Below are positions 1,365 through 4,637 of a stretch of 64,000 nucleotides of DNA, piece after piece. The translations under genes and the position numbers were made by a program. The stretch covers positions 23,108-87,107 of the forward strand of contig JACPCJ010000114.1 in the NCBI GenBank assembly GCA_016179865.1, given 5' to 3'. The stretch is from Actinomycetota bacterium (GTDB taxonomy: Bacteria; Actinomycetota; Acidimicrobiia; IMCC26256; JACPCJ01). The notes beneath the pieces are model-generated. The model saw only the letters and a program-made list of their open reading frames with translations. It did not search any database and had not been told where the DNA came from. How positions within the stretch are numbered: the stretch's first letter is position 1; each line of letters starts with the position of its first letter.

Positions 1365-1408
1365 AGGTCATGAACCGGGGCTGAGACCGGGGTTCGTGAC
1401 CTCTAGGA
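1359..1408. repeat. 50-nt palindromic intergenic element, family D copy 1 (ends TCCTAAAGGTCA / TGACCTCTAGGA)
   Basis: Terminal inverted repeats with a CCGGGG...CCGGGG core. Second exact-length copy at 32428-32477. Spans the stop codons of two convergent genes, so it is a likely bidirectional terminator. Confidence 0.75.
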
Positions 1409-2906
1409 CATTGCGGCCGGTGGCCGAGCAGAGCTTGACCACGCGCCCTTCCCAGGGCTCGGCGACCATCGCGGCGGTGACGTCCGGATCTTCGGACACG
1501 GCGAGGGCGCGCCGGCCGTCGTCGGTGAGGCCCGTGACCGTCGCTCGTTTCGGCACCCCCTCGCGTTCGTACACCACGGCGGTCGCTTCGATGGTGACGG
1601 GGCCGTCGTGCTCGCCGGCCGGGGTGCGGCGCGGAAGGGCGTCGAGCGCCGACTGGCACGCTTCCGGATCGACGCGGACGAACCCTCCGTCGGGAGGGCG
1701 GGTCGAGAGGACGGTGGCGGCGTGCTTCGTGAGGTACCAGCCGACCCCCGTGACCATGCCCGGCGTGCCGGGGTGGGCGCGGCAGGCGGTGACCGCTTCG
1801 CAAAGGGAGTGGGTCACGTAGTTGTTTCCCGGCCCTCCGAAAAAGGCCAGTCCGCCGGTCAGGGTGAGTGGCCGCTCGTCGGCGGGGGTGATGCCGAGGG
1901 CGTCCATCGCCACTTCCACGGCCGACGGGAAGCACGAGTAGAGGTCGAAGCGGGCCACGTCGTCGACCGTGAGCCCTGCTGCGCCCAGGACCCGCCGGCC
2001 GGTCTCACGGATGGCGGGCGATTCGGCCAGCGACCACCGCTCGCTGAGGAAGAAGTGGTCGTGGGCGTCGGCACCCGCCAGCGGGAAGACCAGCCGTTCG
2101 TCGGGAACCCCGGCGGCGCGTGCGGCCTCGAGGCTGGTGACGACGACGGCCGCCGCCATGTCGACGCTGAGATTGGCGCACATGCGCTTTGTGTACGGGA
2201 AGGTCACCACGCGGTTGTCGGCGGACGGAGTGACGATGTCGTCGGCCGAAAAGCGGTCGCGGACCCAGGCCCGCGGGTTGGAGGACGCAGCTGCTGAGAA
2301 GCGCGCCCAGAGAGCTCCGATCGCCCGCTGGTGGTCGTCGATGCCGCGGCCCAACCGGGCGCGCACGGCGGTCTCGAAGAGCGGGTAGATCTCGATCGGG
2401 ATGGCGGCGCCGTGGCGGTTTTCGTCGTCGGTCGTTCCCGGGCGGGCGTCGCCGACCTCATTGCGGCACTCGGGCAGGTCGGAGCGTTCCCAGGGGAGGT
2501 CCACGCCCTCGCGGCGGGCTCGGAAGCGGCTGTGCATGGACTCCGCGCCTGCGATCACGGCCACGTCGAGTTCGCCACGCTGGATGGCAGCACCGGCCTC
2601 GTGCAGCAGGAGGAGCGGCGAGTTCCCGCCCACGAGCGCCCGGAAGCTCGTGGCGCCCGTGATGCCGAGCCGCTGGAGGAGCAGGGCGCCGGGATCGGGG
2701 TAGCGGCGCGACAACGGTTGGGGGATGTAGACGGCCTGCACCTGATCCAAGAGATTGCGGCCGGCGGACGCGTTCCTGACCGCGGCGCGAACGGCGTCGC
2801 CCATGAGGTCAACGGGGTCTCGAGCCGCGGCGAGATCGGCGACCTCGGACGGGGACACGGTGAGTTGACCCACGCCGACGATCACCGGGGTGCGGGGGTC
2901 GGTCAT
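1368..2906 (-). CDS. Thiolase-like protein (acetyl-CoA acetyltransferase superfamily) with C-terminal extra domain
   Basis: N-terminus PVIVGVGQ... and the segments GGNSPLLLLHEAGAAIQRGELDVAVIAGAESM and GGLAFFGGPGNNYVTHS resemble thiolase/SCP-x type enzymes. ATG 2906 overlaps the upstream stop (ATGA). Confidence 0.8.
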   Translation of the reverse strand: MTDPRTPVIVGVGQLTVSPSEVADLAAARDPVDLMGDAVRAAVRNASAGRNLLDQVQAVYIPQPLSRRYPDPGALLLQRLGITGATSFRALVGGNSPLLLLHEAGAAIQRGELDVAVIAGAESMHSRFRARREGVDLPWERSDLPECRNEVGDARPGTTDDENRHGAAIPIEIYPLFETAVRARLGRGIDDHQRAIGALWARFSAAASSNPRAWVRDRFSADDIVTPSADNRVVTFPYTKRMCANLSVDMAAAVVVTSLEAARAAGVPDERLVFPLAGADAHDHFFLSERWSLAESPAIRETGRRVLGAAGLTVDDVARFDLYSCFPSAVEVAMDALGITPADERPLTLTGGLAFFGGPGNNYVTHSLCEAVTACRAHPGTPGMVTGVGWYLTKHAATVLSTRPPDGGFVRVDPEACQSALDALPRRTPAGEHDGPVTIEATAVVYEREGVPKRATVTGLTDDGRRALAVSEDPDVTAAMVAEPWEGRVVKLCSATGRNVLEVTNPGLSPGS

Positions 2907-3700
2907 CCTCGGGTTCCTTCCACGGCGTTCTCGGGCCCGTCGCTGCCGGGGGCGGCGTCGGCGCAGATCGATCGGTACTCGCACGTACGGCAGACGGCGG
3001 GTTCGCCCACGCCTCGAAACTCACGCTCCGCCCGGATCGATTCTGCCGCCCGTCGAAGCTCCTCCTCGATCTCGTCGATCTCGTCGGGCTCGGGATCCCA
3101 GGGAGACGGGTCGTCGGCGATCTCCGGAGCCAGGAACTCGTAGCGGAGGCGCAGGCGCAGGCCCAGGGCCCGCGCCCGGGCGTCGAGGAGCCAGGCTTGC
3201 GCCCGCGCCCGTACGTCGCGCGACAGGTCTTCGACGACGCCGGCGCCGGTCTTGTAGTCGCGGGCGTCGAGGATGCCGTCGTGCACCCATAGCGCGTCGA
3301 TGGAAGCCGACACGGTGAACAGTGGGGGCGGGGAGCGGTGGAACCGCCCGAGCGGGACCTCGCCGCCCTCGTAGCGAGCGTCGCCCACCGGGCAGCGACG
3401 GGCGTGGCGGGTGATGAAGCCTCGGAGCCGCTCGTCGTCGCCGTGGGCGTACGACGCCACCATGCGTTCCACCACGTTCGCGTCGCGACACGACCCCTCG
3501 CGGTGGAGGTGGTTCAGGACGGCGTGGATGCGGCTTCCCTCCGCGCTCCAGGGGCCGGCGTCGACGCCGGGGAGCTGGACGAGGTTGCGCAGCAGGTAGA
3601 GGCGGCGGCAGCGGGCCCAGCGCCACACGGTGGTGGGGCTCAGCGGAACGATCGAGCCGTGCAGCTTTGCCGGGAGGGTGGTCATCGGAAGGCGGGTCAT
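2903..3700 (-). CDS. PD-(D/E)XK (Cas4/AddB-like) nuclease with 4-Cys Fe-S cluster signature
   Basis: N-terminal Cys (ARCRRLY), IDALW...LDARDYKTG nuclease core, and C-terminal CRTCEYRSIC (C-x2-C-x5-C). Alternative in-frame ATG at 3685. Confidence 0.8.
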   Translation of the reverse strand: MTRLPMTTLPAKLHGSIVPLSPTTVWRWARCRRLYLLRNLVQLPGVDAGPWSAEGSRIHAVLNHLHREGSCRDANVVERMVASYAHGDDERLRGFITRHARRCPVGDARYEGGEVPLGRFHRSPPPLFTVSASIDALWVHDGILDARDYKTGAGVVEDLSRDVRARAQAWLLDARARALGLRLRLRYEFLAPEIADDPSPWDPEPDEIDEIEEELRRAAESIRAEREFRGVGEPAVCRTCEYRSICADAAPGSDGPENAVEGTRG

Positions 3701-4401
3701 CGGAAGGCCGGACAGCCGGGGACGTACGGGCAGGCCGTGCAGTGGTCACCGGCGATCGCCTCGGCCCGGCGGGTTCGGCCGGTGATCGTTGCGATCCGTT
3801 GCTCGTAAAGGTCCACGAGCTGAGCCCGGGCCGGCGCCGGGACCGTGGACTCGACCACGCGCCCGCCGACCAGGTCGGCGAGACGGATGCGCAGCGCGCG
3901 GTCGCCCACCCAGCGGGAGAGGCGCAGGACGGCCAGCAGGATGGTCATGTTGTCGGCGGGCTCGGCGAACATCGGGCGGCCCCACAGCTCGAACTGACGC
4001 AGCTCCGGCTCTCCGTCGGGGCCCTCGCACGCCAGGTCGATCCAGCCTCCGACGAGCACGCCTTGGCGTTCGACGGGACGGTCGAAGTCGTCGTGGTCGA
4101 TGGCCCGCACGGGTTCGTCGCCGAAGATGGCGAGGTAGTGGTCGATCGCTCGGCGCTGGACCGCCTGCTCCTCTGGGAGCAGTTCGGTGCGGACGTGGAA
4201 CGACGCCGGGTTCGGGGGGCCGAGCTCGGCGTGGGCGGCCCGGGCGTCCTCGATGAGGGCGTCGCGCACCCGCCCCCGGAGGAAGGCCCCGCCGTCGCCC
4301 TTCTGGTTCTGGAAGGCCAGCCGCAGGCGGCGCGGGCACAGGTCTTCGGCGCGCTCGATGAGGTAGGGCGTGACCTTCGGGAGGGCCGGGGCCTCGGTCA
4401 C
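3697..4401 (-). CDS. Cas4-like paralog with Fe-S Cys motif but apparently degenerate nuclease core
   Basis: LCPRRLRL near the N-terminus and C-terminal CTACPYVPGC. The position equivalent to D-x-K reads ELRQFELWG. GTG 4401 overlaps the upstream stop (GTGA). The Arg-rich 5' part of the 391-aa ORF was rejected. Confidence 0.7.
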   Translation of the reverse strand: MTEAPALPKVTPYLIERAEDLCPRRLRLAFQNQKGDGGAFLRGRVRDALIEDARAAHAELGPPNPASFHVRTELLPEEQAVQRRAIDHYLAIFGDEPVRAIDHDDFDRPVERQGVLVGGWIDLACEGPDGEPELRQFELWGRPMFAEPADNMTILLAVLRLSRWVGDRALRIRLADLVGGRVVESTVPAPARAQLVDLYEQRIATITGRTRRAEAIAGDHCTACPYVPGCPAFR

Positions 4402-4637
4402 CGGCGCGGCGCGGCGCGGAGGTAGTTGGCGGCGACGGCGACGGCGCCAACGGCACCCAAGACGCCGGCCAGCCGGGTGCGGCGGGGGAGGCGCGTCCAC
4501 GCCACGACGGCTGCCACGGCGTCGGCGCCGTCGACGGCGGCGTTCAGCTCGATCACGCGGCGCGACGGCTCGTCCTCTTCCAGCTCGTGGAGCGTGACCA
4601 TGCCCAGCGCGACCTCCCGCGACGCCCAGAGGCGCAC
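4398..4637 (-). CDS. Hypothetical small protein, acidic N-terminus and hydrophobic C-terminal segment
   Basis: High GC3. Sequence MVTLHELEEDEPSRRVIELNAAV...LAGVLGAVGAVAVAANYL. Stop overlaps the next start. Alternative ATG start at 4601. Confidence 0.45.
   Translation of the reverse strand: MRLWASREVALGMVTLHELEEDEPSRRVIELNAAVDGADAVAAVVAWTRLPRRTRLAGVLGAVGAVAVAANYLRAAPRR

What the first reader, a model, noticed from the sequence alone, without database searches (positions are those of the whole stretch)
1368..4637. Translationally coupled operon: small protein, degenerate Cas4-like, intact Cas4-like Fe-S nuclease, thiolase-like enzyme
Four minus-strand genes are chained by 4-nt stop/start overlaps: GTGA at 4398-4401, ATGA at 3697-3700 and ATGA at 2903-2906. 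Both middle proteins carry the Cas4/AddB-type cysteine pattern, with one N-terminal Cys plus C-x2-C-x5-C at the C-terminus. Only the downstream one keeps a D...D-x-K core (LDARDYKTG). The other reads ELRQFELWG at that position. That suggests an active/inactive heterodimer, as in AddAB-type nuclease lobes. Coupling such a pair to a thiolase-fold enzyme and a small hydrophobic-tailed protein has no obvious rationale. The block also interrupts the otherwise conserved prmC-tsaC...glyA-wecA-atp arrangement.
Basis: partly seen in the sequence, partly recalled or inferred. Interest (0 to 1): 0.6.

Follow-up and report, generated by a model that had tools for sequence, protein, structure and literature searches.

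The report
Paired active/dead Cas4-like nuclease operon
Two adjacent genes in an uncultured Acidimicrobiia bacterium encode one intact and one catalytically dead iron-sulfur nuclease-like protein. The two are always found together, and in one branch of the class they are fused into a single protein, so they form an uncharacterised, class-restricted two-lobed nuclease. The neighbouring thiolase-like gene and small membrane-protein gene are looser companions.

Summary
The sequence observation is correct. Four minus-strand genes are chained by GTGA/ATGA overlaps. Both middle proteins carry the Cas4/AddB cysteine pattern (one N-terminal Cys plus C-x2-C-x5-C), and only the downstream one keeps the D...D-x-K catalytic motif.

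Comparative data strongly support the active/inactive-pair reading.
- The dead paralog sits directly upstream of the live one in 78 of 78 Acidimicrobiia genome loci.
- In 59 unfused loci the junction is a 4- or 8-nt overlap, or a gap of at most 24 nt, in 56.
- In 21 loci, forming one clade, the two are fused into one ~500-aa protein. AlphaFold2 models it as a rigid two-lobed body (pTM 0.88).
- The dead lobe keeps its four Cys in 74 of 74 sequences, but its catalytic positions are hypervariable.
- Its predicted fold matches the AdnA, ACE1 and Cas4 nucleases.

The four-gene unit is weaker.
- The thiolase-like gene is a TLP1 homolog (function unknown). It is adjacent in 49 of 70 loci and has been lost from the locus several times.
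- The 79-aa ORF is clade-specific. Here it is the remnant of a ~120-aa gene cut by a 65-bp deletion.

The block is an ancestral, vertically inherited part of the prmC…rpiB-glyA-wecA-atp region, not an island. Its function is most likely housekeeping DNA processing, which remains untested.

The parts
3697..4401 (-). Protein 2 (234 aa, MBI2170244.1 'hypothetical'): the catalytically dead Cas4/AdnA-like Fe-S lobe. Putative cluster ligands are C22, C221, C224 and C230. The conserved ELRQFELW replaces the D-x-K strand.
   Evidence: - ORF and start.
- Family alignment A1.
- No Pfam or NCBIfam membership.
- AlphaFold2 model with pLDDT 90.9.
- Foldseek match to the AdnA nuclease domain at E = 6.8e-9 and to ACE1 at TM 0.63.
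- Four Cys conserved in 74 of 74 sequences, with variable catalytic columns.
2903..3700 (-). Protein 3 (265 aa, MBI2170243.1): the intact PD-(D/E)XK Fe-S nuclease lobe. Catalytic residues are E114, D135, D148 and K150, plus Q168. Cluster ligands are C31, C237, C240 and C246. Five further residues are invariant: H59, H66, C71, H99 and C103.
   Evidence: - Pfam PDDEXK_1 at E = 2.5e-17.
- phrog_69 exonuclease at E = 7e-11.
- Alignment A2.
- Column census of 82 sequences.
1368..2906 (-). Protein 4 (512 aa, MBI2170242.1 'acetyl-CoA acetyltransferase'): a thiolase-like protein type 1 (TLP1) homolog with the extra C-terminal beta-barrel domain. It is a frequent but dispensable operon neighbour of the pair.
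   Evidence: - PF18313 TLP1_add_C at 43.7 bits.
- NCBIfam PRK08257 at 479 bits, below the 654-bit cut-off.
- PDB 4egv at E = 6e-66.
- Neighbourhood census.
4398..4637 (-). The 79-aa ORF (MBI2170245.1). It is the 3' remnant of a ~119-124-aa membrane-protein gene found only in the window's subclade.
   Evidence: - Homologs only in L004, L005, L083 and L084.
- P0421 is the 119-aa form.
- GC3 of 0.94.
4697..4707 (-). Site of the 65-bp deletion (junction at 4700/4699, ±3 nt of microhomology), together with the orphaned original ATG at 4707-4705 of the small gene. After the deletion this ATG opens the reading frame of protein 2.
   Evidence: Alignment of the window with the otherwise 100% identical contig L084; ORF 3697-4872.
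4398..4401 (-). GTGA stop/start overlap between the small ORF and protein 2.
3697..3700 (-). ATGA stop/start overlap between protein 2 and protein 3. This junction is a 4- or 8-nt overlap in 34 of 59 unfused relatives, and is replaced by a fusion in 21 loci.
2903..2906 (-). ATGA stop/start overlap between protein 3 and TLP1, preceded by the Shine-Dalgarno-like GGAAGGAA.
   Evidence: The same -3 spacing occurs in L005, L056, L075 and L079.

Best explanation
Proteins 2 and 3 are the two halves of one obligate, two-lobed Fe-S nuclease of the Cas4/AddB/AdnA structural class.

- **Protein 3** carries the only active site: D135, D148 and K150, with E114 and Q168. By analogy it performs Mg2+-dependent phosphodiester cleavage.
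- **Protein 2** is an ancient paralog-like lobe that has lost catalysis but keeps its own four-cysteine 'iron staple'. It probably serves as a structural or DNA-guiding partner, as the inactivated nuclease-like domain of RecC does for RecB.
- **Stoichiometry.** The two are made in equal amounts by translational coupling, and in one clade as a single fused chain.
- **Inheritance.** The unit is inherited vertically in a housekeeping neighbourhood of Acidimicrobiia.

It therefore most likely acts in chromosomal DNA maintenance, processing single-stranded or broken DNA ends, rather than in defence. The TLP1 gene is co-transcribed here but is an optional neighbour. The small ORF is a disrupted, clade-specific gene.

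**Shown:** pairing, fusion, loss of catalytic residues, retention of the cysteines, fold, and vertical inheritance.

**Inferred:** Fe-S binding, heterodimer formation in the unfused forms, nuclease activity, DNA as the substrate, and the cellular role.
For: - **Pairing.** Protein 2 lies upstream of protein 3 in 78 of 78 loci.
- **Junctions.** Seventeen loci have a 4-nt overlap and 17 an 8-nt overlap; 22 of the other 25 have gaps of 2-24 nt.
- **Fusion.** Twenty-one of 78 loci are continuous ~500-aa ORFs. More than 120 fused protein clusters were called independently. The fused forms are monophyletic.
- **Fused model.** pLDDT 92.4 and pTM 0.88, with an ordered linker.
- **Protein 2 fold.** It matches the AdnA nuclease domain, ACE1, Cas4, Exo5 and Dna2, all Fe-S PD-(D/E)XK nucleases.
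- **Protein 3 conservation.** Catalytic residues are present in 82 of 82 sequences.
- **Protein 2 conservation.** The Cys are present in 74 of 74 sequences. The columns equivalent to D148 and K150 are hypervariable, and motif II is G in 45 and D in 26.
- **Profile alignment** places Q136 and E138 opposite D148 and K150.
- **Co-evolution.** Pairwise identities of proteins 2 and 3 correlate at r = 0.91. Both track glyA (r = 0.72-0.80), and the dead lobe evolves fastest.
- **Not defence or mobile.** There are no PADLOC, viral or CRISPR links, and G+C matches the flanks.
- **Family features.** The defining features of the Cas4 family and the 'iron staple' are described in PMC12094033. The Fe-S subdomain of AdnA and the analogy to the RecC C-terminal domain are in PMC13000450. 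The RecC dead nuclease domain is in PMC1185551.
Against: - There is no biochemical evidence of any kind.
- The profile-profile match between the two families is weak (hhalign E = 0.0018, probability 15%). Paralogy therefore rests mainly on fold and the shared cysteine pattern.
- No helicase or other DNA-repair gene lies in the conserved neighbourhood. The neighbours act in translation, C1 metabolism, cell-envelope synthesis and ATP synthesis, which gives no functional hint toward DNA.
- The extra invariant His/Cys set in protein 3 is not a feature of the known family members that I am aware of, and it could point to a different chemistry.
- TLP1 is adjacent across most of the tree, so a functional link cannot be dismissed.
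- I could not inspect model coordinates, so the interface and metal-site geometry are unverified.
Confidence: 0.55

Rival explanations
1. The conserved functional unit has three components. The TLP1 thiolase-like protein works physically or metabolically with the nuclease pair. For example, it could act as a CoA- or acyl-ligand-binding regulatory or substrate-recognition subunit. The nuclease-fold proteins would then act on a non-canonical substrate.
For: - TLP1 lies on the same strand within 400 nt in 49 of 70 loci and within ~2 kb in 2 more, spread across most of the tree.
- There is a 4-nt overlap with protein 3 in the window and in L005, L056, L075 and L079.
- TLP1 divergence tracks protein 3 (Spearman 0.86).
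- MsTLP1 lacks the thiolase catalytic residues and has no known function (PMC3406046).
Against: - Nineteen of 70 loci lack TLP1 within 8 kb, including the closest relative L004 and most of the fused clade. The gene was lost from the locus several times independently.
- Unrelated housekeeping genes (glyA, wecA, atp, prmC) are equally syntenic, so adjacency alone has little discriminating power. TLP1 tracks glyA just as well (0.83).
- No TLP1-nuclease fusion was seen among 254 family clusters.
Confidence: 0.2
2. The pair is an anti-plasmid or anti-phage defence nuclease of the 'solo-Cas4' kind.
For: - There is structural similarity to ACE1 and Cas4.
- Weak Cas4 profile hits exist (PADLOC Cas4 at E = 7e-5 for the fused ortholog).
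- Solo-Cas4 proteins are reported to interfere with plasmid DNA (as cited in PMC12094033).
Against: - The locus is fixed between housekeeping operons in ~80 species-level genomes.
- Divergence tracks glyA.
- G+C matches the flanks.
- No defence genes, CRISPR arrays or mobile-element hallmarks are adjacent.
- Scores are far below the Cas4 cut-offs (TIGR00372 at 17.6 against 65).
- There are no sequence relatives in 2.9 million viral contigs.
Confidence: 0.08
3. The pair is not primarily a nuclease. Instead it would be an Fe-S (plus His/Cys metal site) sensor, regulator or RNA-processing factor linked to the neighbouring translation genes (prfA, prmC, tsaC).
For: - Fe-S ligands are more strictly conserved than anything else in protein 2.
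- Protein 3 has an extra invariant set: H59, H66, C71, H99 and C103.
- The neighbours are translation-related.
- The PD-(D/E)XK fold includes RNA-acting enzymes such as Rai1/DXO, which appeared only as low-probability fold hits.
Against: - The full catalytic set (D, D-x-K, E and Q) of DNA nucleases is invariant in protein 3 in 82 of 82 sequences.
- The best fold matches are all DNA nucleases.
- Adjacency to translation genes is shared with many unrelated genes in this block.
Confidence: 0.1
4. Protein 2 is still catalytic, using a non-canonical site such as E133/R135/D176/H57.
For: E133 (70 of 74), R135 (74 of 74), R160 (73 of 74) and D176 (70 of 74) are highly conserved.
Against: - E133 and R135 align with D145 and R147 of protein 3. 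These are also invariant there and lie on the opposite face of the strand from D148 and K150, which suggests a shared structural role.
- The motif II aspartate is glycine in 45 of 74 sequences.
- H57 is Q in 14 of 74 sequences, and no conserved lysine is present.
Confidence: 0.05

Closest known systems
AdnAB / AddAB helicase-nuclease: C-terminal Fe-S nuclease domains of AdnA, AdnB and AddB
   Same: - They give the best structural matches for both protein 2 and the fused ortholog: 6ppr_A, 7sjr_A and 3u4q_B.
- They share the one-plus-three cysteine 'iron staple'.
[quoted passage not shown]
   Different: - There is no UvrD-like motor domain. The proteins are 234 and 265 aa, against ~1050 aa.
- No helicase gene lies in the conserved neighbourhood.
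- One of the two nuclease lobes is dead, whereas both AdnAB nucleases are active.
- Sequence similarity is too low for any PDB sequence hit.
RecB nuclease plus the inactivated nuclease-like C-terminal domain of RecC (RecBCD)
   Same: A live PD-(D/E)XK nuclease is partnered with a degenerate PD-(D/E)XK-fold domain that has lost the catalytic residues and serves as a strand-guiding or structural element (PMC1185551; the analogy is noted in PMC13000450).
   Different: - From general knowledge, the RecB and RecC nuclease-type domains carry no Fe-S cluster.
- They are embedded in large helicase subunits.
- Here the dead lobe keeps all four cluster ligands, and the pair stands alone.
Cas4 family: CRISPR Cas4, solo-Cas4 and the Argonaute-associated ACE1
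   Same: - The size (~200-280 aa) is similar.
- Protein 3 has the D-DxK motif.
- Both share the cysteine pattern of one N-terminal and three C-terminal Cys coordinating Fe4S4 (PMC12094033).
- ACE1 structures align at TM ~0.6.
   Different: - The pair is not associated with CRISPR, cas1/cas2 or Argonaute.
- Scores are below the Cas4 model cut-offs.
- An obligate dead partner lobe is present.
- Protein 3 carries an extra invariant His/Cys set.
- The gene context is housekeeping and inheritance is vertical.
M. smegmatis thiolase-like protein type 1 (MsTLP1, PDB 4egv)
   Same: - Protein 4 aligns over residues 1-480 at E = 6e-66.
- It carries the TLP1-specific C-terminal domain PF18313.
- Of the three basic residues lining the putative CoA groove, two are matched: R240 by R232 and R248 by K240. 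R227 aligns with F219, with R218 next to it. This is read from the alignment against PMC3406046.
   Different: Identity is only moderate, and the score is below the NCBIfam equivalog cut-offs. MsTLP1 itself has no known function, so the match transfers none.

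Membership tests
Cas4/AddB-type Fe-S PD-(D/E)XK nucleases (Pfam PDDEXK_1 / Cas_Cas4) | Catalytic D ... (D/E)-x-K motif | tested here: met
   Protein 3 has D135 and D148-Y-K150, invariant in 82 of 82 sequences. Protein 2 does not meet this feature: the equivalent columns are Q136 and E138 and are hypervariable, and motif II is G in 45 of 74 sequences.
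Cas4/AddB-type Fe-S PD-(D/E)XK nucleases (Pfam PDDEXK_1 / Cas_Cas4) | One N-terminal Cys plus three C-terminal Cys (C-x2-C-x5-C), the 'iron staple' | tested here: met
   The pattern is present in both proteins. It is conserved in 74 of 74 sequences (protein 2) and 81-82 of 82 (protein 3). The feature is defined in PMC12094033.
Cas4/AddB-type Fe-S PD-(D/E)XK nucleases (Pfam PDDEXK_1 / Cas_Cas4) | Profile score above the curated threshold | tested here: inconclusive
   - Protein 3 scores 64.1 bits on PF12705, above the 22-bit cut-off, so it meets the threshold.
- Protein 2 scores 12.6 bits, so it does not.
- The fused ortholog scores 20.1 bits on Cas_Cas4 PF01930, below the 22.7-bit cut-off.
- The fused ortholog scores 17.6 bits on TIGR00372 cas4, below the 65-bit cut-off.
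Cas4/AddB-type Fe-S PD-(D/E)XK nucleases (Pfam PDDEXK_1 / Cas_Cas4) | PD-(D/E)XK core fold with an Fe-S subdomain | tested here: met
   The AlphaFold2 model of protein 2 (pLDDT 90.9) matches the AdnA nuclease domain at E = 6.8e-9, ACE1 at TM 0.63, and also SSO0001, Exo5 and Dna2. The fused ortholog matches the same set.
Cas4/AddB-type Fe-S PD-(D/E)XK nucleases (Pfam PDDEXK_1 / Cas_Cas4) | Actual binding of a 4Fe-4S cluster and metal-dependent DNA cleavage | not testable with these tools
   This requires purified protein, UV-visible or EPR spectroscopy, and nuclease assays.
CRISPR-associated Cas4 proper | Encoded next to cas1/cas2 or a CRISPR array | tested here: not met
   The neighbourhoods of L001-L003 and of 80 genome loci contain rpiB, glyA, wecA, atp, prmC and prfA, and no cas genes.
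AddAB / AdnAB / RecBCD helicase-nucleases | Nuclease domain fused to (or in an operon with) a UvrD-like motor domain | tested here: not met
   The proteins are 234 and 265 aa, or ~500 aa when fused, and contain nuclease-type domains only. No helicase appears in the gene tables. The only helicase found in the window is Lhr at 50472-54689, 46 kb away.
AddAB / AdnAB / RecBCD helicase-nucleases | Two paralogous or structurally related subunits encoded side by side and acting as a heterodimer | tested here: inconclusive
   Side-by-side encoding, coupling and fusion are shown. Physical heterodimer formation by the unfused proteins is inferred from the fused model (pTM 0.88) and was not tested directly.
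Thiolase-like protein type 1 (TLP1) | Thiolase-fold N-terminal part plus the TLP1-specific C-terminal domain | tested here: met
   PF18313 scores 43.7 bits, above the 26.1-bit cut-off, at residues 418-491. Thiolase_C_1 is weak. The match to 4egv_A has E = 6e-66 over residues 1-480.
Thiolase-like protein type 1 (TLP1) | Absence of the canonical thiolase catalytic Cys/His/Asn/Cys | not tested
   This is stated for MsTLP1 in PMC3406046. I did not align protein 4 to a canonical thiolase. In the alignment the region reads VGGNSP, against IGGQSP in MsTLP1, which suggests the same state.
Acetyl-CoA acetyltransferase (NCBIfam PRK08257 equivalogs) | Score above the curated equivalog cut-off | tested here: not met
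   The best score is 479 bits against a cut-off of 654 (NF006104). The GenBank name 'acetyl-CoA acetyltransferase' is therefore not supported as a function.
Known anti-phage defence systems (PADLOC) | Significant match to a defence-system protein model, in a defence-type context | tested here: not met
   Only marginal hits were found: E = 0.006-0.04 for protein 3 and E = 7e-5 to Cas4 for the fused ortholog. The context is housekeeping.

The most novel reading that the evidence does not exclude
The ancestral unit is a three-protein machine. A live Fe-S nuclease lobe, a dead Fe-S lobe and a non-catalytic, CoA-binding thiolase-like protein would act together on a substrate that is not ordinary DNA. 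One example would be CoA-linked or otherwise modified nucleic-acid ends, by analogy with the PD-(D/E)XK-fold decapping enzymes. This would be a housekeeping activity peculiar to Acidimicrobiia.

A less exotic version: the pair is a free-standing nuclease module that works in trans with nuclease-less helicases, giving a split architecture for DNA-end resection.
Probability: 0.07. Interest if true: 0.8.

Novelty: new variant of a known kind. Interest (0 to 1): 0.45.

Why it matters
**A defined, uncharacterised family.** The family is restricted to one bacterial class. About 250 clusters at 50% identity were found among 1.8 billion representatives. The dead lobe has no Pfam or NCBIfam model and is annotated only as 'hypothetical'.

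**A clean natural experiment in nuclease evolution.**
- One lobe has lost every catalytic residue yet keeps all four Fe-S ligands in every genome. This argues that the cluster has a structural or DNA-handling role independent of catalysis.
- A single ancient gene fusion supplies a ready-made construct for structural work.

**A possible clue to DNA-end processing.** If the pair proves to be the nuclease half of a split end-resection system, it would show how a poorly studied, mostly uncultured actinobacterial class processes DNA ends.

**Annotation corrections.**
- The 'acetyl-CoA acetyltransferase' label on protein 4 is unsupported.
- The 79-aa 'gene' is a deletion remnant.

Tried and rejected
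**Sequence searches that found nothing useful**
- PDB sequence searches with protein 3 and with profiles A1 and A2 returned only noise.
- NCBIfam and PHROGs gave no hit for protein 2.
- PADLOC gave only marginal hits.
- Rfam on window 1-12000 gave only sub-threshold miRNA-type noise.
- The promoter/terminator scan of 1000-5300 found no promoter-like site and one terminator-like site, no more than expected by chance. The sigma-70 consensus is in any case a poor model for this organism.
- A viral-contig scan with A2 found no relatives. Viral structure matches cover one lobe only.
- Literature searches found no description of this pair.

- The search for related loci with A1 failed because no stretch was conserved enough. 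A2 was used instead.
- Model coordinates are not exposed, so the lobe interface and the geometry of the candidate His/Cys site could not be measured.

**Ideas rejected**
- A genomic island or recent insertion: G+C matches the flanks, and the block is syntenic and vertically inherited.
- The 79-aa ORF as a core component: it is clade-specific and truncated.
- Plus-strand ORFs across the region as genes: GC3 periodicity fits only the minus-strand frames.

Full report
**1. What is in the sequence**

The window is high-G+C DNA (~0.70). By exact protein matches it comes from an uncultured actinobacterial MAG, 'Actinobacteria bacterium', locus tags HYU28_122xx. On the minus strand lie four ORFs:

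| ORF | Coordinates | Length | Start codon |
|---|---|---|---|
| small ORF | 4398-4637 | 79 aa | GTG |
| protein 2 | 3697-4401 | 234 aa | GTG |
| protein 3 | 2903-3700 | 265 aa | ATG |
| protein 4 | 1368-2906 | 512 aa | ATG |

- NCBI's pipeline called the same four genes with the same ends.
- Each frame has coding-type GC3 of 0.88-0.94.
- G+C in the block (0.71-0.75) does not differ from the flanks.

**2. Identity of the four products**

- **Protein 3** is a clear PD-(D/E)XK nuclease. It matches Pfam PDDEXK_1 at 64 bits and E = 2.5e-17, and phrog_69 'exonuclease' at E = 7e-11.
- **Protein 2** has no significant family match. It scores 12.6 bits on PDDEXK_1, below the cut-off, and nothing in NCBIfam, PHROGs or PADLOC.
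  - Its AlphaFold2 model is confident (pLDDT 90.9, pTM 0.86).
  - The model matches the Fe-S nuclease domain of mycobacterial AdnA (E = 6.8e-9, TM 0.59), the Cas4-family enzyme ACE1 (TM 0.63), Cas4 SSO0001, Exo5 and Dna2.
  - 'Degenerate Cas4-like' is therefore correct at the level of fold.
- **Protein 4** carries the TLP1-specific C-terminal domain (PF18313) and aligns with M. smegmatis TLP1 (PDB 4egv) at E = 6e-66.
  - It falls below the NCBIfam acetyl-CoA acetyltransferase cut-offs.
  - For MsTLP1 the literature reports a monomer, none of the thiolase catalytic residues, millimolar CoA binding and no known function (PMC3406046).
- **The 79-aa ORF** has no family.

**3. Residue-level test of 'active versus inactive'**

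I aligned the protein 3 domain from 82 loci and the protein 2 domain from 74 loci.

Protein 3:
- E114, D135, D145, D148, K150 and Q168 are present in 82 of 82 sequences.
- The Cas4-type cysteines C31, C237, C240 and C246 are present in 81-82 of 82.
- H59, H66, C71, H99 and C103 are also present in 82 of 82. This extra set may form another metal site.

Protein 2:
- The four cysteines are present in 74 of 74 sequences.
- The motif II position is G in 45 and D in 26.
- The two columns that profile alignment places opposite D148 and K150 are hypervariable: Q/L/K/V/I/R and R/E/L/D/S/H.
- The conserved E133 and R135 of 'ELRQFELW' align with D145 and R147 of protein 3. These lie on the other face of the strand, so they look structural.

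Protein 2 is therefore catalytically dead in every genome, yet it is held under selection, most strictly at its cluster ligands.

**4. Neighbourhood census**

A scan of one genome per species (GTDB) with the protein 3 profile found 117 genomes. Eighty loci were returned, and all are Acidimicrobiia-type MAGs. I added three further loci and searched all ORFs with HMMs.

- A protein 2 homolog lies directly upstream of protein 3 in 78 of 78 loci that have enough upstream sequence.
- In 59 unfused loci the junction is a 4-nt overlap in 17 and an 8-nt overlap in 17. In 22 others it is a gap of 2-24 nt.
- In 21 loci the two are one continuous ORF of ~490-525 aa.

The third protein search returned more than 120 such fused proteins called by independent pipelines. 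On a neighbour-joining tree of the protein 3 domain the fused forms are a single clade, implying one ancient fusion. AlphaFold2 models a fused ortholog (P0151, 43-sequence alignment) at pLDDT 92.4 and pTM 0.88 with an ordered linker. This means a fixed arrangement of the two lobes.

Orthologs do not occur alone, and protein 2 does not retain catalytic residues.

**5. The thiolase-like gene and the small ORF**

TLP1:
- It follows protein 3 within 400 nt in 49 of 70 loci with enough downstream sequence.
- It lies 1.7-2.1 kb away in 2 more loci.
- It is absent within 8 kb in 19 loci. These include the closest relative L004 (71% identity) and most of the fused clade. On the tree these are several independent losses.
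- The whole region is syntenic (prfA-prmC-orf1140 | TLP1-protein 3-protein 2 | rpiB-glyA-wecA-atp). Adjacency of TLP1 is therefore no stronger evidence of shared function than adjacency of glyA to the ATP synthase genes.

The small ORF:
- It has homologs only in the window's subclade (L004, L005, L083), where they are ~125-aa proteins with an extra N-terminal hydrophobic helix.
- Contig L084 is 100% identical to window 4380-4860 except for 65 extra bases. It encodes the 119-aa form, P0421.
- The window therefore carries a 65-bp, frame-breaking deletion at 4700/4699 that removes the 5' end of this gene.
- The orphaned ATG at 4707-4705 now opens the frame of protein 2.
- Whether this is a real variant or an assembly error cannot be told here.

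**6. Inheritance and context**

- Pairwise identities of proteins 2 and 3 correlate with each other (Pearson 0.91) and with glyA (0.72 and 0.80).
- Mean pairwise identity is 0.81 for glyA, 0.64 for TLP1, 0.56-0.58 for protein 3 and 0.41-0.44 for protein 2.
- This is the pattern of vertical inheritance, with the dead lobe evolving fastest.
- The protein 2 family is small: 254 clusters at E ≤ 1e-3 among 1.84 billion representatives.
- No sequence relatives were found in viral contigs. Viral and PDB structure matches cover one lobe only.
- Flanking genes in the window were confirmed by Pfam as Sua5/TsaC, RpiB, SHMT, a family-4 glycosyltransferase, AtpI-like and ATP synthase subunit a.
- From general knowledge, prfA-prmC-tsaC…wecA-atp is a conserved actinobacterial arrangement. 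In this class the nuclease block is an old, stable part of it rather than a recent interruption.

**7. Most likely mechanism**

Proteins 2 and 3 form one two-lobed Fe-S nuclease with a single active site in protein 3.
- **Shown:** obligate pairing, fusion, dead versus live residue patterns, retained cysteines, fold and vertical inheritance.
- **Inferred:** cluster binding, physical heterodimerisation of the unfused forms, DNA cleavage and the cellular role.

The closest functional analogies are two.
- The AdnA Fe-S nuclease domain threads and cuts the 5' strand (PMC13000450).
- The RecB/RecC arrangement pairs a live nuclease with an inactivated nuclease-like domain that guides DNA (PMC1185551).

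The differences are the absence of any motor domain or linked helicase, retention of the cluster ligands in the dead lobe, and the additional invariant His/Cys set in the live lobe.

I rate the structural claim (an obligate live/dead pair) at about 0.85. I rate the functional claim (housekeeping DNA processing) at about 0.4-0.5.

**8. Rivals**

- **A three-component unit with TLP1 (about 0.2).** It is favoured by the wide distribution and occasional 4-nt coupling. It is weakened by repeated loss and by the equally strong synteny of unrelated genes.
- **A solo-Cas4-like defence role (about 0.08).** The fixed housekeeping locus and vertical inheritance argue against it.
- **A sensor or RNA role (about 0.1).** The invariant DNA-nuclease catalytic set argues against it.
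- **Residual catalysis in protein 2 (about 0.05).** The variable motif II and the lack of a conserved lysine argue against it.

**9. Novelty and score**

Live/dead paralog pairs and Fe-S 'iron-staple' nucleases are both known. The combination here appears undescribed in the libraries and papers I could search. It is free-standing, restricted to one class, always paired or fused, has both clusters retained, and has a dead lobe with no family model.

I class it as a new variant of a known kind, of moderate interest (0.45). The four-gene 'operon with no rationale' reduces to a well-supported two-gene unit, a frequent but optional TLP1 neighbour and a broken clade-specific gene.

Noticed in passing
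window 4697-4707 (minus strand); L084 1345-1425: Relative to the otherwise 100% identical Logan contig L084, the window has a 65-bp deletion. It removes the 5' end of the small membrane-protein gene and puts that gene's original ATG into the frame of protein 2. It could be a population variant or a MAG assembly error.
   Followed up: partly
window 1140-1364 (+): This is a 74-aa ORF (MBI2170241.1, hypothetical), convergent with TLP1, with stop codons 3 nt apart. It is conserved next to prmC in nearly all ~80 Acidimicrobiia loci (E = 1e-21 to 1e-31) but has no Pfam, NCBIfam or PHROG match.
   Followed up: partly
window 2903-3700 (-), residues H59, H66, C71, H99, C103 (H121 in 68 of 82): A second set of invariant His and Cys residues lies in the live nuclease lobe, beyond the four Cas4-type cysteines. 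In the fused model they sit at the ends of helices, which suggests a possible His2Cys2 metal site.
   Followed up: partly
window 525-1139 (+): tsaC (Sua5/YciO/YrdC family) lies between prmC and the 74-aa ORF only in the window and in L005. In the other loci prmC abuts the 74-aa ORF directly.
   Followed up: no
window 50472-54689 (+): A large Lhr-type helicase of 1405 aa, with DEAD, Helicase_C, DEAD_assoc and WH_Lhr domains. It is the only helicase noticed in the window and is 46 kb from the nuclease pair, so it is not linked.
   Followed up: no
L004, L019, L041, L053, L083 (record titles): Several MAG records that carry this Acidimicrobiia-type locus are titled 'uncultured Burkholderiales' or 'Bifidobacteriaceae'. 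These are probably mislabelled or contaminated bins.
   Followed up: no
L002 9503-9808; L003 10850-11146; L023 ~9500-10100; L065 ~8800-9190: A DUF983-like zinc-ribbon membrane protein gene, and in some loci a nitroreductase gene, recur downstream of the nuclease/TLP1 block in other Acidimicrobiia but not in the window. L065 also carries an HNH-endonuclease-like ORF (9313-10425) inserted there.
   Followed up: no
L035 8798-10502; L039 8750-10814: In two loci, 1.7-2.1 kb of unexamined sequence separates the nuclease pair from TLP1.
   Followed up: no
window 6508-6562 (+): A hairpin-like element between glyA and the wecA-like gene scored only as sub-threshold miRNA-type Rfam noise. It is probably an intergenic stem-loop or terminator.
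   Followed up: no
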